Assembly: GCA_964403585.1 (NCBI GenBank)
Contig: CAYOFQ010000001.1
Location: forward strand, 1,344,826 to 1,408,825
Direction: 5' to 3'
Length of the DNA stretch: 64,000 nucleotides
Source of the DNA: an uncultured Gammaproteobacteria bacterium
GTDB taxonomy: Bacteria; Patescibacteriota; Microgenomatia; JALYQM01
Shown: positions 43,982-63,645 of the stretch, piece by piece
Position numbering within the stretch: position 1 is the first letter of the stretch
How the letters are laid out: each line of letters opens with the position of its first letter
The notes under the pieces: generated by a model
Told to the model about the DNA's origin: nothing
The model's database searches: none
The model's input: only the letters and a program-made list of their open reading frames with translations
Made by a program: the position numbers and the translations under genes

Positions 43982-43999
43982 ACCTCATTATGCCGTAAG

Positions 44000-47024: not shown

Positions 47025-47117
47025 AACGGCTCCTAAGAAATCAGTAACAGATAAAGATATAACAGTTATATCAGATTTAAGTAGGAAAAATAAGACGGTT
47101 ATGGTAAAATTGCATCA

Positions 47118-48092: not shown

Positions 48093-48095
48093 TAA

Positions 48096-48974: not shown

Positions 48975-48978
48975 GAGA

Positions 48979-49536
48979 TTACCTTCCTATACCAAAATAC
49001 TGCGCAAAAGCAGCATAAAGTTTCTCCCGGTACTCAGGATTATATAACACAAAACGCGGATCGGTGCTATTTACATATTTCTCCAGATCGGCAATTGGCA
49101 CAAAGGCCACCTCCTGTGTTTCTGTGGCATCAGGCGTAAAGATATCTACATTTGCATCAATAACATAGATATACACATCATTAAACTCATTATCAATAAA
49201 TGCGGAGTCCGTATGATCCATGTGACGCTTAATAGTAAAAAGATAGGCTAAGGAATTAGTATCAATCGGAACACCCAATTCCTCACCGATCTCCCGTTCG
49301 GCAGTAGTGAGAGAATCGTCTCCTGCTGAAATATGTCCGGCGCACGAAATATCCCAGGCGCCGGCAGCGGTATCTTTATCTGCAGCCCGCTTTTGAACTA
49401 GTACTTCACCTCGAGGATTGATAATCCAGACATGAACTGACCGGTGCCAGTCACCATTCTGGTGAACTGCAACCCGGGGCTTCTGAAGACCGGTCTTAAT
49501 GCCGTTTTCGTTTAAGATATCGAATAATTCACTCAT
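48979..49536 (-). CDS. idi: Isopentenyl-diphosphate delta-isomerase, type 1 (NUDIX-fold)
   Basis: HQNGDWHRSVHVWIIN, AGAWDISCAGH and AEREIGEELGV align with IDI-1 landmarks H..G.LHRAFS, WTNSCCGHP (active Cys) and E..RRL.EELGI. 185 aa. Confidence 0.65.
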   Translation of the reverse strand: MSELFDILNENGIKTGLQKPRVAVHQNGDWHRSVHVWIINPRGEVLVQKRAADKDTAAGAWDISCAGHISAGDDSLTTAEREIGEELGVPIDTNSLAYLFTIKRHMDHTDSAFIDNEFNDVYIYVIDANVDIFTPDATETQEVAFVPIADLEKYVNSTDPRFVLYNPEYREKLYAAFAQYFGIGR

Positions 49537-49586
49537 CCGATCATTTTACTATAGTAAGGCCGAAAAATAAAGACATCTGGAAGACA

Positions 49587-49793
49587 TCAGGATGTAAAAT
49601 AAAGCGCCCCATAAATACCAATGATCACCCCGACTATTATGATAAGCAGAAAAAAAAGTACAAAGAACATCAAACTATCACTAAAATGCTCTTTTTGAGG
49701 CTTCTTAACAATTTGGCCTTCCAGCTGATCCAAATACGGATCTTCACGGTAATTCGTAGGATTCACTACTTCAGGCATGCTTCTACTGTACAC
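49587..49793 (-). CDS. Small single-pass membrane protein
   Basis: 68 aa. C-terminal TM FFVLFFLLIIIVGVIIGIYGALYF. Only 3 nt from the upstream gene. Confidence 0.35.
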   Translation of the reverse strand: MYSRSMPEVVNPTNYREDPYLDQLEGQIVKKPQKEHFSDSLMFFVLFFLLIIIVGVIIGIYGALYFTS

Positions 49794-49796
49794 TAC

Positions 49797-51443
49797 CTAA
49801 CGGGCATGAGTCCAGTCAGTATACCCCATATTCTTACCGGAACTGGCCGATTGGGTCGGATAGCTTGTTCCCCCATAGTAATTAACTACCCAGGGAATCC
49901 AGGTATCGTCTCCTGAAGCCGGATTGGTATATCCGGAACCGGCCGACTCCCCCCGCTGATACAAAATATCCATTGCTCGCACCACCGCCGAATCCCCATC
50001 ACTAAAAGGAACCAGTCCTGCGCGATGGAGAATAACTGCCGTCACCACATAGCCCTGCATTCCTTCCCACATATAACCGGTTGCTGCGGGCGGCCATTTG
50101 TAGTCTGCAGCCCGGCGCCAATCCTCAGGTAAGACACCGGAAACATTTCGACCTTGAATCGTTGCCCCTTTCCGGTTAACTCCGGCCTTATTATTCGGAT
50201 CGGCATGCCAGTTAGTATCAGTAAAAACCATCTTCGGAGATTTGGCAGTACCGTTAAAGGCTTTATGTGCCAATACAACCGTTTGCTTCAAGCTTGAATC
50301 ATTAAGATATATTGCCGCGGCAGCCAGAGACGCCCGTGCATGACCTCCCCAGTTATTAGACGAATTTTCAGCAGTTCCAAGTACTCCCGAGCCTCCACTA
50401 TGACCGGAAACATTCACCGTTAACATTCTTCGTACCCACGCCTCAAAGGCGGCATCATGGTACCCGATAATATCTGCGGCAATGATATACGTCTGAAGCC
50501 CGCGCGAAAGCTCAAGTGCACGGGAAAGACTGGACGAAGTAGCTGCAGTCAGTCCGGCAATTGTTTTCGCCCGCATAGCCGAATCATTGTTACGAACAGC
50601 AACGAGTGCCCCGGCTAACGTATGCACGTCATGATCACAATTATTATCATTTAAGCATGCTCCGCCCCAACTACTATTTGCAGCACTTACAACCACGTTC
50701 CAGGCTGAACCACTGGTTGGCAGCTTCATAATTTCATCTTTAGATAACCACACTCCCTGACTTTGACCAACGGGAGGCAGTGATGGAGACGGTCGAACTG
50801 TTGGGGATGCTGTTGGCTCACCGGTCGAAGTAGGGGCAGTCAATGGTTGAAGCGCAACTAAATACATTGAATATGCAGTACCGTCATCCGAAGCCGAATA
50901 AAACGGTATATTCCCTGCTGAAACATCCCGATAATATATTTCATATAAACCAATCAAGCCCAAATCATTTTTACGCAACACAAATTGCTGTAAATTAGTC
51001 ATGTCGTCATTAGTCATACGGGTATACTGGCTTCGGATCCACGCAGGTGCCTGCTTTCCCGGAATATACCGGGAAAGAATATATACTCGCGCCGAACGGT
51101 TGGTTTGTATTGACCAGTTAAGGGATAAACTATCTTTAATCCCGACATTTGGGCTTCGTACATAGGGCAACGCCTGCAATGCACTGGGCATACCAAAAAA
51201 AGTGAACCGGGAATCATCGGTATAAATTTGTTGACCAGTAGTTAAGCACCCATTTACAAAAGAATATCCTGCCGGAGAATTAACCGTATAGAAACTTGAA
51301 TCACATGCAGCAGTACAGGGTTCAATTTTTTGGAGATCCCTCGCCCGGTATTCCCGGACCGCAATAACGAAGGTTACAGAAAAAAGTATAAAAAGAACTA
51401 TAGTAAGGTATAAATGAAGCTTTTTTTTAAGAAATTTAGGCAT
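49797..51443 (-). CDS. Secreted protein: paralog-family domain (member C) + PT linker + C-terminal alginate-lyase-like (alpha/alpha)-toroid domain (tentative)
   Basis: Signal/TM LHLYLTIVLFILFSVTFVIAV. Domain IYTDDSRFTFF..LNWSIQT..YILSRYIPGKQAPAWI..RKNDLGLIGLYEIY..TAYSMYLVA is paralogous to the 12262 gene. Linker PTSTGEPTASPTVRPSPSLPP. C-terminal NNWGGHARASLAAAAIYLND loosely resembles the NNHSYW region of alginate lyases. Confidence 0.5.
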   Translation of the reverse strand: MPKFLKKKLHLYLTIVLFILFSVTFVIAVREYRARDLQKIEPCTAACDSSFYTVNSPAGYSFVNGCLTTGQQIYTDDSRFTFFGMPSALQALPYVRSPNVGIKDSLSLNWSIQTNRSARVYILSRYIPGKQAPAWIRSQYTRMTNDDMTNLQQFVLRKNDLGLIGLYEIYYRDVSAGNIPFYSASDDGTAYSMYLVALQPLTAPTSTGEPTASPTVRPSPSLPPVGQSQGVWLSKDEIMKLPTSGSAWNVVVSAANSSWGGACLNDNNCDHDVHTLAGALVAVRNNDSAMRAKTIAGLTAATSSSLSRALELSRGLQTYIIAADIIGYHDAAFEAWVRRMLTVNVSGHSGGSGVLGTAENSSNNWGGHARASLAAAAIYLNDSSLKQTVVLAHKAFNGTAKSPKMVFTDTNWHADPNNKAGVNRKGATIQGRNVSGVLPEDWRRAADYKWPPAATGYMWEGMQGYVVTAVILHRAGLVPFSDGDSAVVRAMDILYQRGESAGSGYTNPASGDDTWIPWVVNYYGGTSYPTQSASSGKNMGYTDWTHAR

Positions 51444-51498
51444 GCTTTAATTATCATAGGCAAAACCTGCAGGAAATAAAAGTGACGAAAATCACTGC

Positions 51499-51525
51499 TT
51501 AGCACTCTAATTCAACGATTGCTAA
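51499..51525. promoter_or_regulatory. CIRCE-like inverted repeat (TTAGCACTC-N9-GATTGCTAA), putative HrcA operator upstream of clpB
   Basis: Left arm matches CIRCE TTAGCACTC exactly, with a 9-nt spacer. Right arm matches GAGTGCTAA at 8 of 9. A TTGACA hexamer follows at 51528..51533. clpB starts at 51736. Confidence 0.5.
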
Positions 51526-51735
51526 ATTTGACAAAATTATTTATAATAATTTAAGAATTATATAAAGAGTAGCTGCGCATCTAAGTCGGTTTTGCGCTAT
51601 CGAACTTCCGCCCTGGGGAAAGCTTAAGATTATGACTTAACCTATTTCTTGACCAAGGTTAAGTGAGGCTGACTGGAGCTTGTGAGATAGTGCAAAAACG
51701 ACTTAAGTAAGCAAGTTACAAACTTAAGGATTACT

Positions 51736-53826
51736 ATGAACACCAACCTACCACCAGACTACGATGACGGGAGCGAAAACGCTCTGCAGAAATTTACCCA
51801 CAACCTCACCGAAGACGCCAGAAACGGCAAACTTGACCCTGTCATTGGACGCAATGAAGAAATACGCCGTGTAATGCAAGTACTTTCCCGGCGCACTAAA
51901 AACAACCCTGTTTTGATCGGTGATCCCGGGGTTGGAAAAACAGCCATAGTTGAAGGGCTTGCTCAACGTATCATTTCCAAAGATGTACCTGAGACATTAC
52001 AAAATAAAGAACTCCTCGTTTTGGATATTGCCATGGTTCTCGCAGGAGCAAAGTATCGTGGTGAGTTTGAAGAACGAATTAAAAACATTGTCAAAACTAT
52101 TGAGAAGGACCCGGACAAATACATCCTCTTTATTGATGAATTACATATCCTTGTCGGTGCCGGAGGCGGTGGAGAAGGTGCTATGGATGCGGCAAATATC
52201 CTGAAACCGGCTCTCGCTCGTGGCCAACTTCGTTGTATTGGCGCAACTACAGTCAAAGAATATCGGCACTATATCGAAAAAGACCAGGCACTGGAACGCC
52301 GCTTTCAGCCGGTCTTTGTTGGAGAACCATCTCACGAAGACTCAATTACCATTCTACGGGGAATTAAAGAAAAATATGAACTGCATCATGGCATCCGCAT
52401 TACCGACGATGCCTTGATTGCAGCAGTCGAACTTTCGACTAGATATATAACCGACCGCTTTCTGCCCGACAAAGCCGTTGATTTAATCGATGAAGCAACC
52501 AGTGCCCTTAAAATCGAAACACAGTCCATGCCCATCGAACTCGACACTATGAAACGCCGCATGATCCAGTTGGAAATCGAACAGGCAGCCTTAAAAAAAG
52601 AAAAAACAGAAAGTGCCAAAGAAAGACTAACCCACATCGCCGCCGAATTACTCACTCTTAAAGATAAATCGCAGGAAATGGAAAAAGAATGGCAGGAGCA
52701 GAAAAAACTGATTGCCGAAATTCAAAAAGCCAAAACTGAAATCGACAAAACGCGAGCTGAGCTGGAAAAAGCCCAGCGGGAAGTAGACCTGCAGAAAGCA
52801 GCCGAACTCCAATATGGAAAAATTCCTCAACTCGAAGAAAAATTAAAGCAAGCCGATAAAGAGTGGACACAAATACCTGAAGAGAAACGCATTCTACGCG
52901 AGGAGGTAACTTCTGAAGATATTGCCAAAGTAGTTGCCCGGTGGACCGGTATACCCGTTACTAAATTAATGATGTCCGAATCACAAAAACTGGAACATCT
53001 CGAAGCGGAACTTCAGAAGCGGGTTATTGGCCAGGATGAAGCACTGCATAAAGTTGCCAACGCTATTCGCCGATCACGTGTCGGACTGTCACAACCCAAC
53101 AAGCCGATCGGATCTTTCCTTTTTCTCGGACCAACAGGTGTTGGTAAAACTGAGACCGCCAAAGCCCTCGCGGAGTTCCTCTTTAATGACGAGAGTGCTC
53201 TAATCCGCATTGATATGACCGAATACACCGAACCCCACAACGTTGCCCGTTTAATCGGCGCACCTCCGGGCTATGTCGGATATGAAGAAGGAGGTCAACT
53301 TTCCGAAGCTGTCAGGCGCCGACCGTATTCTGTCGTTCTCTTCGACGAAGTGGAGAAAGCCCATCCTCAAGTTTTTAACGTTTTCCTGCAAATACTGGAC
53401 GATGGACGCTTAACCGACGGTAATGGCCGGGTTATCGACTTCAAAAACACCGTGATTATCATGACCTCTAACCTGCCCGAAGAAGAACTCAAAACCTTTT
53501 TCCGTCCCGAATTCCTGAATCGGCTCGACAATATCGTGCTCTTTAATAAACTAACTGAGTCGAACCTCGAACATATCGTCGATATACAGCTGGAGCAAAT
53601 TCGACAACGTCTCGAAAGGCAACTTCTCAAAATGGAAATATCGCCAAAGGTTAAAACCTTATTAGCTAAAATTGGCTATGACCCGGTGTATGGAGCCCGC
53701 CCGCTTCGTCGCATGCTGGAATCGACCATTCTCGATGAAGTTGCCTTACAAGTCATCGAAGGCCGGAAAAAGCCCGGAGACGGAATAAAAATTGAGGTTA
53801 GCAACGGAAAAATAGTGATTGACTAA
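51736..53826 (+). CDS. clpB: ClpB-type AAA+ disaggregase lacking the N-terminal domain
   Basis: Starts directly at the NBD1 lead-in ([47 protein letters not shown]). Long coiled-coil M-domain. NBD2 Walker [10 protein letters not shown] and sensor-2 GARPLRR. 696 aa. Confidence 0.9.
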
Positions 53827-53899
53827 TTGAGTTCAGTGCTACTTGCTTTTACCATAAAAAAGTGTAAAATAGCTGATTACTATAGGTCAGCAAGATTTT

Positions 53900-56800
53900 A
53901 TGCTTAAAAAAGGTAAAAATACCCTCCTCGGATTCATCATAATAGCTCTGTTTACCTATATACTTTCACTTGTAGTACCTCCTGCCAACTTTTCACCTAC
54001 CCCGGTTAACGCTGAAGGCGGGTTCACGTTTGTCACCACCGGCGACTATGGATATAACAGCATCGCTACAGCCACGCTCAACAAAATTAAAGAACTCAAC
54101 CCGGCGTTTAGCCTCACAAACGGCGATCTAAGCTACGATGAGATCACTCCTGAATCAGCCTGGTGCTCCTACGTTAAAGGAATTGTCGGGGAAACTTTTC
54201 CCTTCGAAATTGTAGCAGGGAACCACGAAGCCGGCGACCCTCCCGGTGGACATATTGATAACTTTACCCCATGTCTTCCTCACCGCATGGATAATATTTC
54301 CGGCACCTATGGCTGGGAATACTACTTTGACCATCAAAACGCCCGGTTTATTCAAATATCTCCTGGAATGGCCGAAGGGCCGCTACTACTGGATTACAGC
54401 CTTGGATCGAGCCATTACAACTGGACAGCCAATGCGATTGACTCAGCTCGTGCTAAAGGTATCAAATGGATCATTGTAACCATGCACGAAAACTGCATTA
54501 CCATGGGCGACAAAACCTGTGATATCGGCCCGGATATACTTAATCTCCTTATAGAAAAGAAAGTTGATCTCATTTTTCAGGGTCATGATCACACGTACCA
54601 GCGGAGCAAACAGCTGGCGTTTAACCCTAATTGTCCCCGAATTATCCCTGGCAACTACAATAGCAATTGCGTGTCCAATACGGGGTCAAATGGAGCATAT
54701 GCTAAAGGGGCAGGAAGCATCTTGAATATTGTTGGAACAGCCGGAGCTGGACTATATACAGTCAACACAGCCGACTCGGAAGCTGGATACTTCGCTAAAT
54801 GGATGGGCTCCAATAACCAGCCACGACACGGACTGGTTAAAGTTACCGTTACCGAAAATCAGCTGGTAGCTTCATTTGTCGGCTCAACTACCGAATCATC
54901 CTTCACAGATTCATATACAATTACCGACACATCCGTAACACCTACTCCAAGCTCGTCGGTAGCACCAACAGCTACCCCGATTCCCACCTTTACGCCAATA
55001 CGACTCACCACCGGCAATAACTATACCGATCCAAGCAATAACCAGTGGAATCATGACGCCAGCTACGCCGACGGCGGCTCTACCTACACCACTACCAACA
55101 CAATCGCAAATACCACAACACCGAAATTGTATCAGTCTGAACGATACGGTAAGGACATTAACTATGGATTTAATGTACCCAATGGAACATATGAAGTAAA
55201 AGTTAAGTTTTCGGAAATTTATTTTACCCAAGCCGGCGAACGAATTTTTAACCTCAATCTAAACGGAAACCTGGTTCTCGAAAATTTTGACATTCTCTCC
55301 GAAGTTGCACCCTTCTCCGCACTCGACAAGACCTTTACGGTAAATGTAACCGATCAAAAAATTAACCTGGATTTCTCTACAACCAAAGATAATGCCAAAC
55401 TTGCTGCACTCGAGATTACTCGTATCAGCGGCCCATCACCAACCGTATCTCCAACTCCCAGCCCATCAGTGAGCCCAACAGCGACCCCCACTCCAAGCTT
55501 CACTCCAATTCGACTCAACACCGGTACAACAACAGTAGATACACAAAACCAAACCTGGATCAGCGACAATGGCAAAGTTTCAGGAGGAACTACCTACACG
55601 GTTAATAGCACAATCGCTAATACAAGTAACCAGAAACTCTTCCAATCCGAACGCTACGGAAATACATTTAACTATACATTTACTGTCCCTAATGGCAATT
55701 ACACCGTTAACCTTAACTTCTCTGAAATATATTTCACGCAGGCTGGTGAACGCATTTTTAACGTTGATATCAACGGGAACCGGGTACTGTCAAATTACGA
55801 TATCCTGGCACAAACAGCTCCATATGCTGCCGTCACTAAATCCTTTCCGGCAACAGTTACCGACGGTAAAATTGTCATAAATTTCACTACCGTAAAGGAC
55901 AATGCTAAAATTGCCTCCTTAGAGATTGTATCGTCATCTGGGCCAACTACTTCACCAACAGCCAGTCCATCCCCAACACCAACTACTACCCCAACTCCAA
56001 CCCCGACAACAACCCCTACACCAACCCCTACTTTCTCACCGATTCGACTGAATACCGGAACGTCAGTGCTCGACACACAAAACAATACCTGGTCTACCGA
56101 TACAGCTCAAAACGCAGGTGGAGAAACGTATACGGTCAATAACACGATCGCCAATACTGCCAATCCAAAATTATTCCAGTCCGAACGCTATGGTCAAACC
56201 CTTACCTACAACTTTACCGTCCCCAACGGTTCGTATAACCTCAACTTAAATCTTTCAGAAATCTACTTCACCCAGGCCGGCGAACGTATCTTCAATGTTG
56301 ATATTAATGGAACACGAGTCCTCAGCAACTTTGATATTCTCACCCAGGTTGCACCATTCACCGCACTCACAAAATCCTTCCCGGTTACGGTTACCAATGG
56401 TAAGATCCAAATTGTCTTTACGACAATTAAAGACAACGCCAAATTGGCTTCACTGGAAATTGTACCGGCAACCAATCCGACAGCAACTCCACAACCAACA
56501 ATTACACCAACGCCTACCGTTACACCAACCCCATCAACCACGGCAACACCCACCCCTACTCCAACCACAACGCCAACTCCGGTCCCCAGTGGTGTTGTTA
56601 ACGGACTAAACGCCACCTATTACGATAATATGGATTTTACAGGCACATCTGTTACCCGAATTGATCCACAAGTATACTTTGACTGGATGCACGGAGCGCC
56701 AACACCATCCATGGGCACCGATACCTTCTCCGCCCGTTGGACAGGATTCATCGTACCCAATTACTCCGAGAACTATACTTTTTACACCGATTCCGACGAC

Positions 56801-57019
56801 GGGGTTCGCGTTTGGATAAATAACGTTCTGATTATAGATAAATGGATCGACCAGGGAGTAACTGAGCATTCGGGGTCAATCGTTTTACAAGCCAACCAGA
56901 AGTATGCGGTTAAAGTTGAGTATTACGATAACTCGGGTGGTGCCAGCTGCAAACTGCGCTGGAGCTCCGTATCTCAAGTTAAACAAACTGTTCCACAAAG
57001 CGCCTTCTTAACGCAGTAA
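53900..57019 (+). CDS. Large secreted multidomain protein: calcineurin-like metallophosphoesterase (purple-acid-phosphatase-like) + 3 tandem malectin-like carbohydrate-binding domains separated by PT linkers + C-terminal PA14 domain
   Basis: Signal/TM. MPE motifs GDLSYDE, GNHEAG, GHDHTYQRS. Three ~170-aa repeats each with LYQSERYG/LFQSERYG ... SEIYFTQAGERIFN ... DILS/DILAQ ... DNAK(L/I)A(A/S)LEI, the malectin-like pattern. PA14 region ATYYDNMDFTG..FSARWTGFIVPNYSENYTFYTDSDDGVRVWINN..YAVKVEYYDN. Confidence 0.8.
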   Translation: MLKKGKNTLLGFIIIALFTYILSLVVPPANFSPTPVNAEGGFTFVTTGDYGYNSIATATLNKIKELNPAFSLTNGDLSYDEITPESAWCSYVKGIVGETFPFEIVAGNHEAGDPPGGHIDNFTPCLPHRMDNISGTYGWEYYFDHQNARFIQISPGMAEGPLLLDYSLGSSHYNWTANAIDSARAKGIKWIIVTMHENCITMGDKTCDIGPDILNLLIEKKVDLIFQGHDHTYQRSKQLAFNPNCPRIIPGNYNSNCVSNTGSNGAYAKGAGSILNIVGTAGAGLYTVNTADSEAGYFAKWMGSNNQPRHGLVKVTVTENQLVASFVGSTTESSFTDSYTITDTSVTPTPSSSVAPTATPIPTFTPIRLTTGNNYTDPSNNQWNHDASYADGGSTYTTTNTIANTTTPKLYQSERYGKDINYGFNVPNGTYEVKVKFSEIYFTQAGERIFNLNLNGNLVLENFDILSEVAPFSALDKTFTVNVTDQKINLDFSTTKDNAKLAALEITRISGPSPTVSPTPSPSVSPTATPTPSFTPIRLNTGTTTVDTQNQTWISDNGKVSGGTTYTVNSTIANTSNQKLFQSERYGNTFNYTFTVPNGNYTVNLNFSEIYFTQAGERIFNVDINGNRVLSNYDILAQTAPYAAVTKSFPATVTDGKIVINFTTVKDNAKIASLEIVSSSGPTTSPTASPSPTPTTTPTPTPTTTPTPTPTFSPIRLNTGTSVLDTQNNTWSTDTAQNAGGETYTVNNTIANTANPKLFQSERYGQTLTYNFTVPNGSYNLNLNLSEIYFTQAGERIFNVDINGTRVLSNFDILTQVAPFTALTKSFPVTVTNGKIQIVFTTIKDNAKLASLEIVPATNPTATPQPTITPTPTVTPTPSTTATPTPTPTTTPTPVPSGVVNGLNATYYDNMDFTGTSVTRIDPQVYFDWMHGAPTPSMGTDTFSARWTGFIVPNYSENYTFYTDSDDGVRVWINNVLIIDKWIDQGVTEHSGSIVLQANQKYAVKVEYYDNSGGASCKLRWSSVSQVKQTVPQSAFLTQ

Positions 57020-57025
57020 TCAAAC

Positions 57026-57685
57026 TTATATAATCCGTTTCCAACACCATTTCCGCATTGGACAATGTTCACAATCGGGCATTTTATTAGCAAAACAATA
57101 CTGTCGTCCTATTAATATCACTTGTTTCGGAGCATTAACCCAATTCTCTTGTGGCCATTGCTCTATTAAATCAAGTTCTATCTTCTTTGGATCAGTAGCG
57201 TCCGTCCAACCGATACGATACGACACCCGCTTTACGTGGGTATCTACCACAACCCCAAGTGCTTTTTTATAAATATCAGCAATAATCACATTCGCCACTT
57301 TCCGCCCCACTCCAGGTAACCGAAGTAAATCATCAATTGTATCCGGAACGTTCCCCTCAAACTCCTCATCAATAATTCTAGCCATCGCTACTAAATTTTT
57401 AGCTTTCGTTCGAAAATAGTTAATCCGGTTAATAAGCAAATTAACCTCCTCCACTCGGGCATCCTTTAATGCTTTTGCGTCAGGAAACCGCTCAAAGAGT
57501 GCCGGGGTAACTTTATTTACCAGCAGGTCCGTTGTTTGAGCAGATAAAATAACCGCAACCAGTAGTTCAAATGGAGTTTTATGATTTAAAAAAGGCAGTA
57601 CCTCACCATAAACCTCATCAAGTTTTTGCAGCATCGCCAATGTATCTTCACTGTTTCGCATATTTTGATTGTACCAGACACACAA
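57026..57685 (-). CDS. nth: Endonuclease III (Nth), HhH-GPD DNA glycosylase with 4Fe-4S cluster
   Basis: HhH-GPD region (LLRLPGVGRKVANVI). C-terminal Cys ladder C-X6-C-X2-C-X5-C (CFANKMPDCEHCPMRKWC). 219 aa. Confidence 0.9.
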   Translation of the reverse strand: MCVWYNQNMRNSEDTLAMLQKLDEVYGEVLPFLNHKTPFELLVAVILSAQTTDLLVNKVTPALFERFPDAKALKDARVEEVNLLINRINYFRTKAKNLVAMARIIDEEFEGNVPDTIDDLLRLPGVGRKVANVIIADIYKKALGVVVDTHVKRVSYRIGWTDATDPKKIELDLIEQWPQENWVNAPKQVILIGRQYCFANKMPDCEHCPMRKWCWKRII

Positions 57686-57707
57686 TACAAAATGTTATAA
57701 TAATACA

Positions 57708-59519
57708 ATGACAAAACTAAACATTTCAAAAACAAATTGGGATTTATCCCCCTTATTACATTCAGATGACGATCCACAAATCGAGCAGCAAAAACAAAAA
57801 GTAACTGAAGAATCTAATAAATTTATCAATAAATGGAAAGACCGCGAAGATTACCTTCAAAATCCTAGTGTGCTCAAAGAAGCATTAGATGAGTACGAAA
57901 ATTGGCAACACCACTATGGCACGTCGGGAGATTTCGGCTATTATTTTTCTCTACGAAGTGCACAAGACTCGGTTAGCCCGGAAATTAAGGCTAAAGAAAA
58001 CCAGATCGAAGATTTTGCCAATAAAATTCAAAATGATATTCAATTTTTTGAAATGCGTATCTCCAAAATTCCTAAGGAACAACAACAAAAGTTTCTTGAT
58101 GAACCTTCCTTGGCATCGTATAAACACTACATAGAAAATCTCTTTAAGCAGTCGAAATATCTCTTAAGCGAAGCCGAAGAAAAAATAATGAACCTGAAAT
58201 CCAGCACCTCACACTATAACTGGGTCAAAATGACATCCACTTTTCTTTCTAAAGAGGAAGCCGAAATTATCATGGAAGACGGTACCGGAAAAGTACAAAA
58301 CTTTTCCGAAATCGCCACCTTAACTTCGAGTAAAAATAAAGCAACCCGGGATAGTGCAGCCGAAGCGTTTCATACAATTAATGCCAAATGGGCTGAAGTT
58401 GCTGAAAATGAAATCAACTCAATATTCTCCAATAAAAAAACCAACGATGAATTACGCGGCATGGAACGACCCGACACCGCTCGACACCTAGCTGATGACA
58501 TTGAAACAGAAGTCGTCGACGCACTTGTCGAAGCAGTTTCTTCCCGCAACAGTATCCCCCGGAAATTCTATCAAATAAAAGCAAAACTCATGGGGCAATC
58601 GAAACTTGCCTATCACGAACGCAATGTCGAATATGGTGAAATAGATAAAAAGTATACCTATCAGGAGGCAGTTGATCTCGTTTACCATGTCTTTACCCAA
58701 CTCGATCCTAAATTTGCCGAAATCGCCAAAATGTTTGTAGAAACCGGCAAAGTCGACGCCCTTCCTCAAAAAGGCAAGCGCGGCGGTGCTTTCTGTGCAT
58801 ATAATCTTAAATCCCAACCAACCTACACCTTATTAAACTTCACTGAACGACTGAACGATGTACTCACCATCGCCCACGAATTCGGCCATGGCATCAATGA
58901 CGAATTAATGAAAGAAAAACAAAATGCACTTAACTTCGGCACACCAACCTCTACCGCCGAAGTAGCCAGTACCTTTATGGAAGATTTTGTCCTGCAGGAA
59001 CTCGTAAAAGAATCCGACGATGAACTTAAATTAGCAATTATGATGATGAAATTAAACGACGATGTTTCGTCTATTTTCCGACAGGTAGCCTGTTATAAAT
59101 TTGAACAGGATCTTCATGCAGCATTCCGCGCCAAAGGTTACCTTTCCAAAGAAGATATTGGCGAGATTTTTACCAAAAATATGTCCGCCTATATGGGGGA
59201 AGCGGTTGAACAATCCGAAGGAGCGCAAAACTGGTGGGTTTACTGGTCACATATTCGCTCATTCTTCTACGTATATTCTTATGCCAGTGGCCTGCTGATC
59301 TCGAAATCCTTACAAGGTGCAGTCAAAGAGGATGCTTCGTTTGTTGAAAAAGTCAAAGAATTTTTATCTTCCGGCACATCAGACTCACCAAAAAATATCT
59401 TTGCCAAAATGGATGTAAACATTGCTGATAAAAATTTCTGGAACAAAGGATTGGACGAAATTGAAAGTTTACTGTCTGAAACCGAAGAGTTGGCCAGAAA
59501 ACTCAAGAAAATAGACTAG
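57708..59519 (+). CDS. pepF: Oligoendopeptidase F (M3B family)
   Basis: Zinc motif HEFGHG (TIAHEFGHGINDE) and the M3 C-terminal fold. Start placed at ATG 57708 (MTKLNISK) to avoid overlap with nth. Confidence 0.85.
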   Translation: MTKLNISKTNWDLSPLLHSDDDPQIEQQKQKVTEESNKFINKWKDREDYLQNPSVLKEALDEYENWQHHYGTSGDFGYYFSLRSAQDSVSPEIKAKENQIEDFANKIQNDIQFFEMRISKIPKEQQQKFLDEPSLASYKHYIENLFKQSKYLLSEAEEKIMNLKSSTSHYNWVKMTSTFLSKEEAEIIMEDGTGKVQNFSEIATLTSSKNKATRDSAAEAFHTINAKWAEVAENEINSIFSNKKTNDELRGMERPDTARHLADDIETEVVDALVEAVSSRNSIPRKFYQIKAKLMGQSKLAYHERNVEYGEIDKKYTYQEAVDLVYHVFTQLDPKFAEIAKMFVETGKVDALPQKGKRGGAFCAYNLKSQPTYTLLNFTERLNDVLTIAHEFGHGINDELMKEKQNALNFGTPTSTAEVASTFMEDFVLQELVKESDDELKLAIMMMKLNDDVSSIFRQVACYKFEQDLHAAFRAKGYLSKEDIGEIFTKNMSAYMGEAVEQSEGAQNWWVYWSHIRSFFYVYSYASGLLISKSLQGAVKEDASFVEKVKEFLSSGTSDSPKNIFAKMDVNIADKNFWNKGLDEIESLLSETEELARKLKKID

Positions 59520-59521
59520 AA

Positions 59522-60670
59522 TTATAAAACGGTATCAATAACACCACCACCCAGAAGCACCCGATCTCGGTAAAACACCGCGCTCTGTCCTGGCGTAATG
59601 CCCCGTTGCGGCGTTGCCAACTCAACTCGTACGGTATCTCCATCTTTAACAACTTTTCCTTCGTTAAATCCACCCATGTGCCGCAACCGAACCTGACAAT
59701 CAACCTCGACAGCTATTTCGTCAGCAAAGGTTGAAGAATGCACAGTAAATGAAGTTTTATCAGTTTGACCGCTTTTACCGACAATCAACTGATTAAGATC
59801 CTTGTTAAAGCCAACAACATAATAAGGAACTACTTTATTAGTAGTAAATCCTCGACGCTGGCCAATCGCATAAAATGGCAACCCGTTATGTTTGCCTATA
59901 ATTTCACCTTCAACAGTCACTACATCACCGGGCACCACATATTCAGGCATATGACGCATGAGAAAATCACGATAGTTATCTCCCGGAATAAAACAAATAT
60001 CAAAACTCTCCTTGGAAGAAGCCACCGGTAAATTCCAGTCAACCGCCAGTTTACGAACATCATCCTTCACCATATTTCCCAACGGAAATACGAGGCGCAC
60101 CAGATCTTCCTGCTTCATCGTATACAAAAAATACGACTGATCCTTTTTATCATCATTACCCATCTTCAGAAATAATGGATCGTGATTAGGAAACGCTTCC
60201 AGTATCTCTGCGCGTTTCTCCATTGCGTCATATGCTAAAACCTCATATTGATCACCATGCTGTTGCACTACATTAATATAATGCCCGGTTGCCAGCATAT
60301 CAAAACCAAGCCCTTGCACATATTTAACTAATCGTCCGGTCTTAATTTTTCGGTTACAGACAACACAAGGATTAGGCGTTCGTAAAGATTTAAATTCATC
60401 AAGGAAATACTCAACAACTGTTTCCTTGAAGATATCTTCAAAGTTGAAAGTATAGAACGGAATACCCAGCATATCACACGTCTTTCGGGCCGCCATTAAG
60501 CTCTCGGTCGAACAACACTTGTTCTCCCGGGATAAATAGGGGTCATATTCGGCCCAAAAATGCAGATGCACACCGGCCACATCGTATCCGGCATCTACCA
60601 GAAGTTTCGCCGAAACCCCTGAGTCAACGCCACCGGACATCCCGACAGCCACTTTTAACCGTTTTGCCAT
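59522..60670 (-). CDS. mnmA: tRNA-specific 2-thiouridylase MnmA
   Basis: PP-loop SGGVDS (VAVGMSGGVDSGVSAKLL). Catalytic Cys CCS and NPCVVCN. C-terminal beta-barrel. 382 aa. Confidence 0.9.
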   Translation of the reverse strand: MAKRLKVAVGMSGGVDSGVSAKLLVDAGYDVAGVHLHFWAEYDPYLSRENKCCSTESLMAARKTCDMLGIPFYTFNFEDIFKETVVEYFLDEFKSLRTPNPCVVCNRKIKTGRLVKYVQGLGFDMLATGHYINVVQQHGDQYEVLAYDAMEKRAEILEAFPNHDPLFLKMGNDDKKDQSYFLYTMKQEDLVRLVFPLGNMVKDDVRKLAVDWNLPVASSKESFDICFIPGDNYRDFLMRHMPEYVVPGDVVTVEGEIIGKHNGLPFYAIGQRRGFTTNKVVPYYVVGFNKDLNQLIVGKSGQTDKTSFTVHSSTFADEIAVEVDCQVRLRHMGGFNEGKVVKDGDTVRVELATPQRGITPGQSAVFYRDRVLLGGGVIDTVL

Positions 60671-60706
60671 GAGGATATTATACCAGATAGACGGGCAAAA
60701 CCCGAA

Positions 60707-63385
60707 TTAGTCCTGTTTTGTGAGTTTACGAAAAGCAAACTGCAATTTACGCAGGGCCGTAACCTCAATTTGTCTTACCCGCTCCCGCTTAATACCATAC
60801 TCTTTACCTATTGCTTCTAGGGTATCTCGCTCTCCCGAAGGCTGTATTCTCCGCAGTAAGATATCTCTTTCTCGGTTGGTTAACGCTTCAAGAGCTTGAG
60901 TTAGTCGTGGTCCAAAAATATGGTCCATCTCTGTGAAATCATGCGCAGTAGCATCAGGTATTATCTCAGCAAACGTAGTTTGTGATTCGCCACTTGCGTC
61001 AACATTTTGATCAAAGGAAACTGATGAGTTTTCAGCAACTATAGGATCCACAAGTCGTATCAAGTTAGATATACGAGTAAAGGAATACTTGCCGTTCCCC
61101 AGTAATTGAGCGACGGCCTCCTCTACGGCAACCGTTGCCTGAACCTCGTTCATTCGCTCAGCAGTATACCGTACCAGTTTTTCAAGAGCCATTTCGACAG
61201 AAGTAAACGGTAATCCTAACGCAGTGGCTTCAGCTATAATACGTTGTTTCAATGTATGATACGCATATCGAGCCTCACGCCGCATCAAAATCTGCCTGTT
61301 ACGTAACACTTCTCCATACATATCGACTTTCACATATTTCATAAAGTAGCTCGAATACTGACTACCGTGTCGCCAATCATACGTATCAATTGCTCTCAAA
61401 GCACCAATTACTCCACTACCGTATAAATCCTGTAACAAAGATACATCAGGCACCAGACCTTTGTACTTAAATACGATATCCAACACCATCCGTAAATTCC
61501 TGAACAAAAGCTCTTGACGGTATGGCTCCGACTCCAGCCCAAGCAATAACGCACGCTCCAGATCCTGAGTAAGAAGAACATTCTCGGCCGGGCTTGCTTG
61601 TTTAAAATAACCCGCTAAATTAAACATCTGCTGCATGGAATCTATTGGTGGAATATCGGCAGGTACTTCAAATAGTGGACGTAATACCGGCTTATCCGTC
61701 TTCGATAGTTGGGGCTCAACAACACTAACTATTTGACCAAGATTATCAACATTATTTGCTAAGCCGACTTTCTCATATAAAATTTCAGGAATAAAATCGC
61801 GAAGAAATGCAACAACTACTGTCGCCTCAAGCCCTGCTGCCACCGCTACGCTAGATACAAAATATGCAGTATACGCATAAAACAGATCATCCTTATTGGG
61901 AGTATCACCACTCAATATGTTGAGATCAGAGAGGTGCAAGCCCAAATCCCGGGAAATAGCAGGAGCATACATCGACATAAAATCTCTTAAATTTAGAGTA
62001 CGCACGGCTTTTTCTACTGATGTATTTTTAGCATCTATACTGCGTTGTAACAGTTGACCATAGCTCGCAATTGCATCTTCATGGATTATTCTTTTAATAG
62101 TATCAGGATCCACAGATTCACCACTCTCTAAGCGTCGCTTCAATAACTCGAGTGGCATCAAGGATTTTACATCGACCTCTCCATCTCTGATGGCTTTTCT
62201 ACGGCTTTTTCTCCTATCGCCTTTACTTGTTGTATCTTGAGGTTGAAAGCCCGTAGTCTCCTCCTCAGCCGAAGGCGGATTAAGGTGAGAAGTGATCAGA
62301 CCAATCATCCGATTATGGTGTTCTAAATCTTGCACTATTTCCCGTGGTAAGTGGTTACTGCCTGGCAAAGAAACAATATGATCCCGTGCGTGCTCGTGAA
62401 GCAATAAAACTCTTTCCGGAGACCGTGCGAATAACCGGTTCTGAAGAATTGTTCGCACTGCCGGAAGAATAGTTATATCAAGGCCATCTCCTAGGGTATA
62501 TCCAGTTCGTTGTAACGCTAAAAACAAATTCTGCTGGGATAGAAAATCCGGAATTGTAATTTCCGGAAAAAACCGTTTACATACTATTACCATCTGCTCG
62601 CGATCAAACCGATTTAAGGAACACAGTGCTTCAAATAAATTTCCAATTTTTGTGTCATGTAATATTTCAGATTGAGCCAAAATCAAATCTCCAAGCTCAT
62701 CATATACTCCCGCTGCATTTTGTAGTAAATATTCTACTGGGTTTTCCCTGTTCAATAGCTCTGCAACTCGTCGGTTCAACAAAGGTACACCTTGGGTAAA
62801 TCTAAAAATTAATTCGGCAACGTCATTTCCGACTCCAAGCTGCTCCGCCGTCTCAGATATCGAAAGTGCATCCAAAACAACAGTCTCGAACTTACTTTCA
62901 AGAGAAGGTGCTAAGCTCGGGACAGATCTCCCAAGGAGCATAATCAACGACTTATGATTCGGATTGGATATTTTTGTTCCGAATATTTGACCAATACTCA
63001 TCTGTTCTTTACGGGGTAGCTCACTCATTCCGTCAATAAGCACCGCACGTCGCGTTTCCGAAGTACTATCTAAAATTTCCCGTAAACGTTCGATATCTTC
63101 CCCGGGAAAACGCAACTGTTGTTCGTGCTGACCAGGAGCATGGATCTTTACATGCATTAAATCATCACGGTATTGAATCAAAATTGCGTTTGGCAATGTG
63201 TTCAGAATAGAATCAACAAAATGGGTTTTACCATAACCTGGTGGTCCTTGAACCATAACTGCACGTCCATTGATTTCCTCGGCTTCCCAACGAGCAACGA
63301 GTTTTTTAAGACGAGATCTCGGACGCTCAGTGGTAACCACTTCAGGTTGTGCATCAACACTAAATGCCGTTTGTTCTATACCCAT
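60707..63385 (-). CDS. Fusion protein: N-terminal MalT/STAND-like P-loop NTPase + ~450-aa helical region + C-terminal sigma-70-family regions 2, 3 and 4
   Basis: Walker A MVQGPPGYGKTHF (MalT-like PAGYGKT). Walker B VLIDGMSE. Sigma region 2 has LRMVLDIVFKYKG..LLQDLYGSGVIGALRAIDTYDWRHGSQYSSYFMKYV. Region 4 has LTNRERDILLRR..GERDTLEAIGKEYGIKRERVRQIEVTALRKLQ. Preceded by AGAGGTAAG SD. Confidence 0.75.
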   Translation of the reverse strand: MGIEQTAFSVDAQPEVVTTERPRSRLKKLVARWEAEEINGRAVMVQGPPGYGKTHFVDSILNTLPNAILIQYRDDLMHVKIHAPGQHEQQLRFPGEDIERLREILDSTSETRRAVLIDGMSELPRKEQMSIGQIFGTKISNPNHKSLIMLLGRSVPSLAPSLESKFETVVLDALSISETAEQLGVGNDVAELIFRFTQGVPLLNRRVAELLNRENPVEYLLQNAAGVYDELGDLILAQSEILHDTKIGNLFEALCSLNRFDREQMVIVCKRFFPEITIPDFLSQQNLFLALQRTGYTLGDGLDITILPAVRTILQNRLFARSPERVLLLHEHARDHIVSLPGSNHLPREIVQDLEHHNRMIGLITSHLNPPSAEEETTGFQPQDTTSKGDRRKSRRKAIRDGEVDVKSLMPLELLKRRLESGESVDPDTIKRIIHEDAIASYGQLLQRSIDAKNTSVEKAVRTLNLRDFMSMYAPAISRDLGLHLSDLNILSGDTPNKDDLFYAYTAYFVSSVAVAAGLEATVVVAFLRDFIPEILYEKVGLANNVDNLGQIVSVVEPQLSKTDKPVLRPLFEVPADIPPIDSMQQMFNLAGYFKQASPAENVLLTQDLERALLLGLESEPYRQELLFRNLRMVLDIVFKYKGLVPDVSLLQDLYGSGVIGALRAIDTYDWRHGSQYSSYFMKYVKVDMYGEVLRNRQILMRREARYAYHTLKQRIIAEATALGLPFTSVEMALEKLVRYTAERMNEVQATVAVEEAVAQLLGNGKYSFTRISNLIRLVDPIVAENSSVSFDQNVDASGESQTTFAEIIPDATAHDFTEMDHIFGPRLTQALEALTNRERDILLRRIQPSGERDTLEAIGKEYGIKRERVRQIEVTALRKLQFAFRKLTKQD

Positions 63386-63403
63386 CTTACCTCTTTTCGA
63401 AGC

Positions 63404-63637: not shown

Positions 63638-63645
63638 AATCCTCC

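What the first reader, a model, noticed from the sequence alone, without database searches (positions are those of the whole stretch)
53900..57019. Surface protein combining metallophosphoesterase, three malectin-like repeats and PA14
One 1039-aa secreted protein carries a purple-acid-phosphatase-like catalytic domain (GDxxY, GNHE, GHDH motifs). It is followed by three tandem ~170-aa malectin-like glycan-binding modules separated by Pro/Thr linkers, and a terminal PA14 domain. The three modules are also ~75% identical at the DNA level, a recent tandem duplication that could recombine. The architecture suggests a glycan-targeted phosphoesterase, possibly for host or partner surface interaction in an episymbiont.
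Basis: partly seen in the sequence, partly recalled or inferred. Interest (0 to 1): 0.55.

Follow-up and report, generated by a model that had tools for sequence, protein, structure and literature searches.

The report
Secreted phosphatase tethered to sugar-binding modules
A candidate-phyla (Patescibacteria) bacterium encodes an exported enzyme that joins a purple-acid-phosphatase-like domain to three malectin modules and one PA14 sugar-binding module, probably to harvest phosphate on or near polysaccharides; the domains are real but the combination is a modest variation on known modular enzymes and its repeats are ancient, not recent.

Summary
The ORF (53900..57019, +, 1039 aa) and its architecture are real. 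It has an export signal, a purple-acid-phosphatase (PAP)-like metallophosphoesterase, three malectin/CBM57 modules and a PA14 module, separated by Pro/Thr/Ser linkers. Pfam supports all three domain types. All seven PAP metal ligands are present and are 99-100% conserved in 100 relatives. An AlphaFold model (pLDDT 91.9) matches PAPs best.

The repeat claim fails. The modules are 64.5-68% identical in DNA, not ~75%. Synonymous sites are saturated, the longest shared exact word is 11 nt, and module clades pre-date the split from two orthologues that carry 3 and 2 modules. The duplication is therefore ancient and not a recombination substrate.

The catalytic domain belongs to an unnamed, uncharacterised exported clade (~1000 clusters at 50% identity) found in Chloroflexota, Patescibacteria, Actinomycetota and DPANN archaea. 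It is repeatedly fused to carbohydrate-binding modules and glycan enzymes (CBM96, GH16, GH99-like, GT2, dockerin). The full MPE+malectin+PA14 combination occurs in only three protein clusters, all syntenic.

Best reading: a secreted phosphoesterase tethered to glycan, used for phosphate scavenging; the substrate is unknown. Nothing tested supports wall anchoring or a host-surface role. Verdict: new variant of a known kind, moderate interest.

The parts
53900..57019 (+). Complete CDS, 1039 aa plus stop codon
   Evidence: ORF list. An identical protein, P0001, is present in NCBI on a 1.57-Mb contig and in a Logan assembly.
53900..54013 (+). Export signal, aa 1-38: basic n-region MLKKGK, hydrophobic core aa 6-32, and a VNA|E site resembling a signal-peptidase I site
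   Evidence: This is the only hydrophobic segment in the protein. It is modelled as helix 5-25. The orthologues have VKA|E and ARA|Q at the same place. Cleavage is inferred, not shown.
54014..54934 (+). PAP-like binuclear metallophosphoesterase domain, aa 39-345. Ligands are D49, D76, Y79, N108, H196, H229 and H231, with catalytic H109. Six conserved Cys at 89, 125, 199, 207, 245 and 257.
   Evidence: Pfam Metallophos hit. Alignment to kidney-bean PAP. Conservation in 99-100 of 100 relatives. AF2 model with pLDDT 91.9. The top 31 Foldseek PDB hits are all PAPs.
54923..54994 (+). Pro/Thr/Ser linker L0, aa 342-365
   Evidence: 71% P+T+S. Low pLDDT in this stretch.
54995..55420 (+). Malectin/CBM57 module M1, aa 366-507
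   Evidence: Pfam Malectin. SERY at 413, EIYF at 439, KDNAK at 496. Orthologous to M1 of P0002 and P0003 at 75-79% aa identity.
55421..55504 (+). Pro/Thr/Ser linker L1, aa 508-535
   Evidence: 75% P+T+S.
55505..55930 (+). Malectin/CBM57 module M2, aa 536-677
   Evidence: Pfam Malectin, best stretch 538-671. SERY at 583, EIYF at 609, KDNAK at 666. Groups with the M3-type clade.
55931..56038 (+). Pro/Thr linker L2, aa 678-713. It contains the only true tandem DNA repeat in the gene (12-nt period, 55973-56032).
   Evidence: 92% P+T+S. TRF reports 4.9 copies of a 12-nt unit with 78% matches. Also reported by the repeat finder.
56039..56464 (+). Malectin/CBM57 module M3, aa 714-855
   Evidence: Pfam Malectin. 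phmmer to Xenopus malectin 2jwp/2k46 at E 1e-11, with E87, Y89, Y116 and F117 aligned. 75% aa identity to M3 of P0002.
56465..56599 (+). Pro/Thr linker L3, aa 856-900
   Evidence: 81% P+T+S. pLDDT below 50.
56600..57016 (+). PA14 lectin module, aa 901-1039. D-cis-D motif DSDDG at 964-968 and calcium-binding loop 2 'DNSGG' at 1010-1014.
   Evidence: Pfam PA14 at E 3.8e-28. E 3.8e-45 to PA14-A of C. thermocellum RsgI3, PDB 6qe7. Loop motifs located and compared with PMC6852018.

Best explanation
This is a Sec-exported, modular extracellular enzyme of a Microgenomates-group Patescibacteria bacterium.

Proposed mechanism:
- The signal peptide is probably removed after Ala38.
- The mature protein starts with a ~310-aa binuclear metallophosphoesterase of purple-acid-phosphatase type. 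Asp49, Asp76, Tyr79 and His231 would hold one metal, Fe(III)-like because of the Tyr ligand. Asp76, Asn108, His196 and His229 would hold a divalent metal. A metal-bound hydroxide attacks a phosphate ester, with His109 assisting. Three probable disulfides stabilise the domain outside the cell.
- Flexible Pro/Thr/Ser linkers of 24-46 aa connect this domain to three malectin/CBM57 modules and one Ca2+-dependent PA14 module.
- Together these give multivalent attachment to a polysaccharide. That holds the phosphoesterase on or next to a glycan surface.
- There it releases phosphate from, or cleaves phosphodiesters in, glycan-borne or glycan-adjacent organophosphates. This supplies phosphorus to a metabolically reduced cell.

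Shown: domain identities, ligand conservation, fold, export-type N-terminus, independent folding of the modules, family distribution and fusion partners.

Inferred: catalysis, metal identity, signal cleavage, disulfides, which glycan is bound, which ester is cleaved, and the physiological role.
For: Domains and active site:
- All domains score above the Pfam cutoffs.
- All five PAP motifs align residue for residue with kidney-bean PAP.
- The seven ligands plus H109 are present in 99-100 of 100 relatives, and the six Cys in 98-100.
- The AF2 model has pLDDT 91.9 and pTM 0.90. Its top 31 PDB matches are all PAPs, led by lupin PPD1 at E 1e-16. GpdQ and the teichoicase PhoD follow further down.
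- A family profile search of the PDB also hits PAPs first, at E 1.4e-11.

Export:
- There is a single N-terminal hydrophobic segment followed by an AXA-type site, and no other anchor.
- 87 of 99 family members have an N-terminal hydrophobic segment.

Lectin modules look functional:
- SERY and EIYF, corresponding to Xenopus malectin E87/Y89 and Y116/F117, are present in all three modules.
- The PA14 keeps the D-cis-D motif and a calcium-binding loop 2.
- dN/dS is far below 1 between modules, so each copy is under purifying selection.

Glycan context of the catalytic clade:
- Among 53 members, 13 carry CBM96 and 6 a polysaccharide-lyase-like domain. LamG and PA14 also occur, and single proteins carry GH16 x2, a GH99/WbsX-like domain, GT2 or a dockerin.

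Architecture:
- In the full-length AF2 model the catalytic domain is confident, the lectin cores fold, the linkers have pLDDT below 40 and pTM is 0.45. This indicates beads on a string.
Against: - There is no experimental data for any member of this clade, and no paper in the library describes it.
- Gene neighbourhood gives no functional hint. ClpB, endonuclease III and PepF flank the gene here and in the orthologues. The neighbours in Leifsonia and Roizmanbacteria are uninformative.
- The plant-PAP second-shell histidines (kbPAP H295/H296) align to K205/T206, so substrate handling differs from studied PAPs.
- The lectin modules could serve to retain the protein on the producer's own wall rather than to target a substrate.
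- Glycan specificity cannot be read from sequence. The CBL2 'DNSGG' only loosely resembles the xylan-type NNTGN.
- The lectin parts of the full-length model rest on a shallow alignment and have low confidence over the first third of each module.
Confidence: 0.6

Rival explanations
1. Self-retention model. The enzyme is a general phosphate- or nucleotide-scavenging phosphatase. The malectin and PA14 modules act only as cell-wall-binding modules that keep it on the producer's own envelope glycans, as choline-binding or LysM repeats do in Firmicutes. The substrate is soluble, for example nucleotides, sugar phosphates or phytate.
For: - The best structural match is lupin PPD1, a diphosphonucleotide phosphatase/phosphodiesterase, followed by purple acid phytases.
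- There is no membrane or sortase anchor, so another way of retaining the protein would be useful.
- Many clade members carry Ig-like, PKD or cadherin-like modules rather than CBMs.
Against: - The nearest relatives of the PA14 and malectin modules sit in proteins that sense or degrade exogenous polysaccharides: RsgI3, GH16 proteins, GH2 glucuronidases and a gum-arabic enzyme.
- Fusions of the clade to GH16, a GH99-like domain and a dockerin point to external glycans.
Confidence: 0.2
2. Host-interaction model. The lectin array binds surface glycopolymers of a host or partner cell. The phosphoesterase then cuts phosphodiester-linked wall polymers such as teichoic acids or phosphoglycans, to attach to, remodel or feed on the host envelope.
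For: - The organism is a Patescibacteria member, and the clade is also present in Saccharibacteria and DPANN archaea.
- PhoD, a secreted endo-teichoicase (PMC7086022), is a detectable structural relative at E 7e-7.
- The architecture is lineage-specific, occurring in three clusters only.
Against: - An episymbiotic lifestyle is not established for this lineage by any data here.
- The same catalytic clade is abundant in free-living Chloroflexota and Actinomycetota.
- There is no linkage to pili, secretion systems or other host-interaction genes in the conserved neighbourhood.
- Relatives of the lectin modules bind plant-type polysaccharides.
Confidence: 0.1
3. The catalytic clade uses the PAP scaffold for chemistry other than phosphate-ester hydrolysis, for example on sulfate or other esters decorating polysaccharides, and is in effect a new glycan-modifying enzyme family.
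For: - Partner domains are overwhelmingly glycan-related.
- Second-shell residues differ from those of studied PAPs.
- The clade is 15-20% identical to any solved protein.
Against: - Every ligand of the phosphoesterase centre is invariant, including the Tyr.
- Every protein named among the significant PDB fold matches belongs to the metallophosphoesterase fold: mostly phosphoesterases, plus non-catalytic members such as GAP50 and Vps29. None is reported to carry out another chemistry.
Confidence: 0.05
4. The protein is a pure adhesin or lectin, and the metallophosphoesterase domain is a catalytically dead scaffold.
For: The protein carries four lectin modules and long linkers typical of adhesins.
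Against: - All seven ligands and H109 are intact here and in 99-100% of relatives.
- The catalytic domain is 68-71% identical between orthologues, comparable with or above most malectin modules at 63-79%. It is therefore at least as constrained as they are.
Confidence: 0.03

Closest known systems
Purple acid phosphatases: kidney bean PAP 2qfp/1kbp, sweet potato PAP 1xzw, lupin PPD1 3zk4, wheat purple acid phytase 6gja, mammalian PAPs 1ute/1war
   Same: - It has the same five motifs and the same seven metal ligands, including the diagnostic Tyr (GDxxY), plus the GNH histidine.
- PAPs are the best fold matches, at TM 0.65-0.69 and probability 1.0.
- PAPs are also the best hits when a family profile is searched against the PDB.
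   Different: - Sequence identity is only 15-20% and rmsd is above 4 A.
- It lacks the plant-PAP N-terminal domain and has no Metallophos_C hit.
- The kbPAP H295/H296 positions are K205/T206 here.
- It has six clade-specific Cys.
- It is fused to lectin modules and occurs in bacteria and archaea. No enzymology exists for it.
PA14 dyad of Clostridium thermocellum anti-sigma factor RsgI3 (6qe7) and C. clariflavum RsgI4 (6qdi), PMC6852018
   Same: - Very close in sequence, at E 3.8e-45 over 135 aa.
- The D-cis-D motif and calcium-binding loop architecture are conserved.
- Those modules bind pectin or xylan, Ca2+-dependently in the case of xylan.
   Different: - There is a single PA14 here, not a dyad.
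- It is attached to an enzyme rather than to a transmembrane anti-sigma sensor.
- The CBL2 is DNSGG, identical to neither the pectin type (QHVRA) nor the xylan type (NNTGN). The ligand is unknown.
Malectin (2jwp/2k46, 9ikp) and bacterial CBM57-type modules of GH2 beta-glucuronidases (5uj6, 6d50, 6ed1) and of the Bifidobacterium glucuronidase/arabinofuranosidase (NCBIfam NF049877)
   Same: - The Pfam Malectin model matches three times.
- Four of the six Xenopus sugar-contact residues align and are conserved in all three modules.
- As in bacterial CAZymes, the module is appended to a catalytic domain.
   Different: - The modules are appended to a phosphoesterase instead of a glycoside hydrolase.
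- There are three tandem copies.
- The Y67 and D186 equivalents could not be aligned by HMMER. The invariant 'DNAK' motif is a candidate for D186 by inference only.
Glucan phosphatases laforin and SEX4 (CBM20/CBM48 plus a dual-specificity phosphatase domain; PMC3724922)
   Same: The design logic is the same: a carbohydrate-binding module delivers a phosphatase to a polysaccharide, whose phosphate esters it removes.
   Different: - The catalytic fold and mechanism are unrelated: Cys-based CX5R dual-specificity phosphatase versus a binuclear metal centre.
- Those enzymes are intracellular and eukaryotic, and use a different CBM family.
- This is an analogy only, not membership (one search shows no DSP domain).
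Bacillus subtilis PhoD, a secreted endo-acting teichoicase (2yeq; PMC7086022)
   Same: It is an exported metallophosphoesterase-fold enzyme that degrades a phosphodiester-linked wall glycopolymer during phosphate starvation. It is a detectable structural relative, at Foldseek E 7e-7 and TM 0.56.
   Different: - It is much more distant than the PAPs.
- Its metal site differs (Fe/Ca in PhoD, from my own knowledge).
- It is exported by Tat and carries no lectin modules.

Membership tests
Calcineurin-like metallophosphoesterase superfamily (Pfam PF00149) | Profile HMM match above the curated gathering score | tested here: met
   35.5 bits against a cutoff of 21.5, covering aa 57-233.
Calcineurin-like metallophosphoesterase superfamily (Pfam PF00149) | Five-block metal-binding signature (D / GDxx[DY] / GNH[DE] / H / GHxH) and the beta-sandwich fold | tested here: met
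   The motifs lie at 48-49, 75-79, 107-110, 195-196 and 228-231. The AF2 model matches MPE-fold proteins exclusively.
Purple acid phosphatases | Seven invariant ligands D, D, Y, N, H, H, H, including the Tyr of GDxxY | tested here: met
   D49, D76, Y79, N108, H196, H229 and H231 align to the kbPAP ligands. They are conserved in 99-100 of 100 relatives.
Purple acid phosphatases | Closest structural relatives are PAPs | tested here: met
   Foldseek ranks 1-31 are all PAPs, at E 1e-16 to 8e-11 and TMq up to 0.69. Identity is only 15-20%, so this is a distant sister clade.
Purple acid phosphatases | Plant-type accessory features: N-terminal PAP domain (PF16656), Metallophos_C (PF14008), second-shell His pair (kbPAP H295/H296) | tested here: not met
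   Neither Pfam family hits at E<=1. The His pair aligns to K205/T206. I therefore describe the domain as PAP-like and do not file it as a plant- or mammalian-type PAP.
Purple acid phosphatases | Fe(III)-tyrosinate charge-transfer colour, acid pH optimum, tartrate resistance | not testable with these tools
   This needs purified protein, UV-vis spectroscopy, metal analysis and kinetics.
Malectin / CBM57 (Pfam PF11721) | Profile HMM match above the gathering score, three separate stretches | tested here: met
   295.4 bits against a cutoff of 23, in 3 stretches. tblastn finds exactly three copies in the window.
Malectin / CBM57 (Pfam PF11721) | Sugar-contact residues of Xenopus malectin: Y67, E87, Y89, Y116, F117, D186 (PMC13335976) | tested here: inconclusive
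   E87, Y89, Y116 and F117 align to SERY and EIYF in all three modules. Y67 and D186 fall outside the HMMER alignment.
Malectin / CBM57 (Pfam PF11721) | Demonstrated carbohydrate binding | not testable with these tools
   This needs glycan arrays, affinity electrophoresis or ITC.
PA14 domain (Pfam PF07691) | Profile HMM match above the gathering score | tested here: met
   98.6 bits against a cutoff of 24, covering aa 901-1033. E 3.8e-45 to RsgI3 PA14-A.
PA14 domain (Pfam PF07691) | D-cis-D calcium motif and calcium-binding loop 2 | tested here: met
   DSDDG lies at 964-968 and aligns to the DDG of RsgI3. The CBL2 position reads DNSGG at 1010-1014. The cis-peptide geometry itself was not tested.
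Glucan phosphatases (laforin/SEX4) | Dual-specificity phosphatase CX5R catalytic domain | tested here: not met
   No DSP domain appears in the Pfam scan. This is a functional analogy only.
Covalently or membrane-anchored Gram-positive surface proteins | LPXTG sortase signal, lipobox Cys or C-terminal transmembrane anchor | tested here: not met
   There is no LPxT[GAN] motif, no Cys before residue 89, and no hydrophobic segment other than aa 6-32.

The most novel reading that the evidence does not exclude
The ~1000-cluster PAP-like clade defined here may be a previously unrecognised family of glycan-directed phosphoesterases. They could be teichoicase-like, or enzymes that remove phosphate from phosphoglycans or phosphorylated polysaccharides. 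They are deployed extracellularly with interchangeable carbohydrate-binding modules. Ultra-small Patescibacteria and DPANN archaea would use them to strip phosphate, or phosphodiester-linked wall polymers, from other cells or from polysaccharide detritus. The window protein would be its most elaborately lectin-armed member.
Probability: 0.15. Interest if true: 0.65.

Novelty: new variant of a known kind. Interest (0 to 1): 0.38.

Why it matters
If the enzyme does act on or beside polysaccharides, it would be a bacterial, extracellular, metal-dependent counterpart of the eukaryotic glucan phosphatases. It would also mark an uncharacterised enzyme clade of roughly 1000 sequence clusters that recurs in Chloroflexota, Actinomycetota, Patescibacteria and DPANN archaea, always alongside glycan-binding or glycan-processing domains.

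That would add a phosphorus-acquisition route to the sparse known physiology of candidate-phyla bacteria, and a new activity class to polysaccharide turnover.

As it stands, it is a well-supported domain architecture with an inferred function, not a demonstrated mechanism.

Tried and rejected
- **DNA-level repeat detection.** The repeat finder and TRF found only the Pro/Thr linker tracts, not the malectin modules. This agrees with the low DNA identity.
- **Recent duplication or recombination.** Rejected on saturated dS, 10-11-nt maximum shared words and the module tree.
- **Organism identification through GTDB representatives.** The window genome is not among them; the best match to the catalytic domain is 57%. 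ClpB gave only a group-level placement in Microgenomates.
- **Neighbourhood inference.** The ClpB / endonuclease III / PepF synteny is conserved but functionally unrelated. The neighbours of clade members in Leifsonia xyli and a Roizmanbacteria MAG gave no useful Pfam hits.
- **Other copies in the window.** There are no paralogous MPE, malectin or PA14 copies elsewhere.
- **RNA features.** No Rfam family or tRNA was found in the 64 kb.
- **Promoter and terminator scan.** Nothing above shuffled expectation.
- **NCBIfam.** It has no model for the catalytic clade.
- **Literature.** Searches for this architecture or clade returned nothing relevant.
- **Foreign origin of modules.** GC3 per domain (0.41-0.50) is close to neighbouring genes (0.39-0.44), so there is no sign of recent acquisition.
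- **Full-length AF2.** It gave no confident inter-domain packing, with pTM 0.45.


Full report
**1. Observation**

The ORF is exactly as reported: 53900..57019 on the + strand, 1039 aa. Pfam-A supports the three domain types well above the curated cutoffs:
- Metallophos, aa 57-233, 35.5 bits against 21.5.
- Malectin in three stretches, 295 bits, E 1.4e-88.
- PA14, aa 901-1033, 98.6 bits.

So are the two other PAP blocks, GD 48-49 and MH 195-196. The malectin modules occupy aa 366-507, 536-677 and 714-855. They are separated by linkers of 24-46 aa that are 71-92% Pro/Thr/Ser.

The protein has one hydrophobic segment (aa 6-32), preceded by MLKKGK and followed by VNA|E. The two orthologues have VKA|E and ARA|Q at the same position. 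It has no LPXTG motif, no lipobox Cys and no C-terminal anchor. 'Secreted' is therefore plausible, but 'surface protein' is not shown.

**2. The repeat claim fails**

- Pairwise DNA identity of the modules is 67.8%, 64.5% and 66.2%, not ~75%. Only the amino-acid identity of M2/M3 reaches 74.6%.
- Third-codon positions are 34-42% identical, against 27% expected from composition.
- Nei-Gojobori dS is 2.2 or not computable because of saturation. dN is 0.19-0.34.
- The longest exact word shared by two modules is 10-11 nt.
- The repeat finder and TRF see only the linkers. The one true tandem tract has a 12-nt period at 55973-56032 in linker L2.

Only two other proteins among 5.8 billion share the full architecture. 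P0002 is 69% identical and has three modules. P0003 is 62% identical and has two. In a tree of all eight modules:
- M1 is orthologous in all three proteins, at 75-79% aa identity.
- P0002-M2 pairs with P0003-M2.
- Window M2 falls with the M3 type. Window M2/M3 identity (75%) equals window-M3/P0002-M3 identity (75%).

The duplications are therefore at least as old as the split between these organisms, whose ClpB proteins already differ by about 12%. Each copy has been kept by purifying selection. Copy number does vary (3, 3, 2), and linker lengths vary as well. This is old modular evolution, not a recent and recombination-prone array.

**3. The catalytic domain**

phmmer against the PDB finds only purple acid phosphatases, at E 1.4e-05. 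All five motif blocks align to kidney-bean PAP: D49, D76, Y79, N108, H109, H196, H229 and H231 correspond to its ligand and catalytic positions. The kbPAP residue numbering is from my own knowledge.

An alignment of 100 relatives shows these eight residues in 99-100 sequences, and six cysteines in 98-100. The cysteines are probably three extracellular disulfides; this is inference.

The AlphaFold2 model of aa 38-365 has pLDDT 91.9 and pTM 0.90. Foldseek ranks 1-31 are all PAPs:
- Lupin PPD1 at E 1e-16.
- Sweet potato and kidney bean PAPs at TM 0.69.
- Wheat purple acid phytase and the mammalian PAPs.

GAP50, Lmo2642, GpdQ and PhoD follow. A family profile also hits PAPs first, at E 1.4e-11, and no solved structure lies inside the clade.

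Identity to any solved protein is only 15-20%. The plant-type N- and C-terminal PAP Pfam domains are absent. The kbPAP second-shell His pair aligns to K205/T206. I therefore call the domain PAP-like, a distant sister clade, and not a plant- or mammalian-type PAP.

**4. The clade**

More than 100 proteins share the ~320-aa module at 40-57% identity. It sits at either the N- or the C-terminal end of the protein.

A profile search of 1.84 billion representatives gives 992 clusters at E<=1e-30. The profile also included some partner-domain columns, so this count is approximate.

In GTDB species representatives there are 497 relatives. The best 78 loci break down as follows:
- 28 Chloroflexota
- 24 Actinomycetota, including cultured Leifsonia xyli, Arthrobacter and Cryobacterium
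- 11 Patescibacteria (Roizman-, Gottesman-, Ames- and Woesebacteria, WWE3, Saccharibacteria)
- 4 Acidobacteriota
- 4 archaea (Woesearchaeota, Nanoarchaeota, Methanosarcinales)
- 3 Proteobacteria
- 2 Omnitrophota
- 2 Rokubacteria

87 of 99 members have an N-terminal hydrophobic segment, so the clade is largely exported.

Partner domains among 53 members are CBM96 (13), a polysaccharide-lyase-like domain (6), LamG, PKD, Big_9/cadherin-like and PA14 (4), and malectin (3, namely the window protein and its two orthologues). Single proteins carry two GH16 domains, a GH99/WbsX-like domain, GT2 plus two CBM96, or CARDB plus a dockerin. This recurrent fusion pattern is the main evidence that the catalytic module works in a glycan context.

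No NCBIfam model covers the clade, and no paper in the library describes it.

**5. The lectin modules**

Module M3 aligns to Xenopus and human malectin at E 1e-11. E87, Y89, Y116 and F117, four of the six reported sugar-contact residues (PMC13335976), correspond to SERY and EIYF, which are present in all three modules. An invariant DNAK motif is a candidate for D186 but was not aligned.

The next relatives are CBM57-type modules of GH2 beta-glucuronidases and of a Bifidobacterium glucuronidase/arabinofuranosidase.

The PA14 is strikingly close to PA14-A of the C. thermocellum RsgI3 sensor, at E 3.8e-45. It keeps the D-cis-D motif, DSDDG at 964-968. Its calcium-binding loop 2 reads DNSGG. That is nearer the xylan-type NNTGN than the pectin-type QHVRA described in PMC6852018, but identical to neither.

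The full-length AF2 model has mean pLDDT 65.6 and pTM 0.45. The catalytic domain is confident, the lectin beta-cores fold, and the linkers have pLDDT below 40. This indicates independent modules on flexible tethers.

**6. Organism and context**

Named ClpB relatives, at 63-64% identity, are Blackburn-, Woese- and Roizmanbacteria, which belong to the Patescibacteria group, Microgenomates group. The identical protein lies on a 1.57-Mb NCBI contig.

The synteny ClpB - this gene - endonuclease III - PepF is conserved in both orthologue contigs but is functionally unrelated. Per-domain GC3 (0.41-0.50) is similar to that of neighbouring genes, so there is no sign of recent acquisition.

Nothing tested shows an episymbiotic lifestyle or a host-directed role.

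**7. Explanation and rivals**

*Best supported (0.6).* An exported PAP-like phosphoesterase is held on or next to a polysaccharide by a multivalent array of three CBM57 modules and one PA14 module. It releases phosphate from, or cuts phosphodiesters in, glycan-borne or nearby organophosphates. This serves phosphorus scavenging by a metabolically reduced cell.

*Rivals:*
- The lectins only retain a general phosphatase or nucleotidase on the producer's own envelope (0.2).
- Host-surface binding with teichoicase-like action, in analogy to PhoD (PMC7086022) (0.1).
- Chemistry other than phosphate-ester hydrolysis on the PAP scaffold (0.05).
- A catalytically dead adhesin (0.03), which is contradicted by the intact ligands.

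The closest functional analogy is the eukaryotic glucan phosphatases laforin and SEX4, which combine a CBM with a phosphatase domain (PMC3724922). Their catalytic fold is unrelated, so this is an analogy and not membership.

**8. Verdict**

The architecture is real, and as a complete combination it is rare: three clusters in one lineage. Each part is a known domain type, and appending CBMs to secreted enzymes is commonplace. The 'recent recombinogenic repeat' element is wrong.

The most useful outcome is the recognition of a sizeable, uncharacterised, glycan-associated PAP-like clade. Novelty: new variant of a known kind. Interest: 0.38.

Noticed in passing
window 49797..51443 (-); L002 6181..7701 (-): The 548-aa ORF just upstream of ClpB shares its N-terminal ~220 aa (a TM segment, an unknown ~190-aa module and a Pro/Thr linker) at 52% identity (E 4e-81) with the syntenic gene in the orthologous contig. 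The C-terminal domains differ: Metallophos in L002, a distant paralogue 25% identical to the target's MPE, versus a sub-threshold Alginate_lyase hit (E 4.8e-4) in the window. This looks like a catalytic-domain swap on a shared anchor or binding module of unknown fold.
   Followed up: partly
window 55505..55930 (module M2): Window module M2 clusters with the M3-type modules (72% to P0002-M3, 75% to window M3) rather than with the M2 type of the orthologues (63-65%). This suggests an old replacement or conversion of the middle module in this lineage.
   Followed up: yes
window 55973..56032 (linker L2): This is the only true tandem DNA repeat in the gene: a 12-nt unit (CAACCCCAACTA-like, encoding TPTP) in 4.9 copies with 78% matches. 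Linker lengths differ between orthologues (28/36/46, 34/26/42 and 38/57 aa). Any length change by slippage would occur in linkers, not modules.
   Followed up: partly
window 55795..56085 (-), 56263..56616 (-), 54911..55231 (-): Antisense ORFs of 96-117 aa opposite the Pro/Thr linkers translate to GVGV-rich strings. They are by-products of the linker composition, not genes.
   Followed up: no
window 60707..63385 (-): An 892-aa ORF has a weak AAA ATPase hit at its N-terminus and Sigma70 region 2 and region 4 at its extreme C-terminus (aa 629-882). This is an unusually long sigma-factor-like protein.
   Followed up: no
window 51736..53826 (+): ClpB is 696 aa and lacks the Clp_N domain, whereas related hits of 843-865 aa carry PF02861. 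The window's own ClpB did not appear at 100% in the protein database, where the best hit was 88%, although the target protein did.
   Followed up: no
P0002 (JGI 3300050046 contig, gene 886..4350): The database entry for the 3-module orthologue is 1154 aa and starts with Leu, about 127 aa upstream of the conserved MIKKSK... start. This is almost certainly an over-extended gene call that overlaps the neighbouring NUDIX gene.
   Followed up: no
window 1..64000: There is no tRNA, tmRNA or Rfam family in 64 kb. GC skew is negative throughout. The window encodes an ATP-dependent DNA ligase (8028..9800, -) and an ADP-forming acyl-CoA synthetase-type protein (29820..31901, +).
   Followed up: no
P0111 (1176 aa, NCBI/JGI): A second, independent fusion of the same catalytic clade with a PA14 domain: MPE - PKD - PA14 - Big_13, 39% identical to the window protein in the MPE module.
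   Followed up: partly
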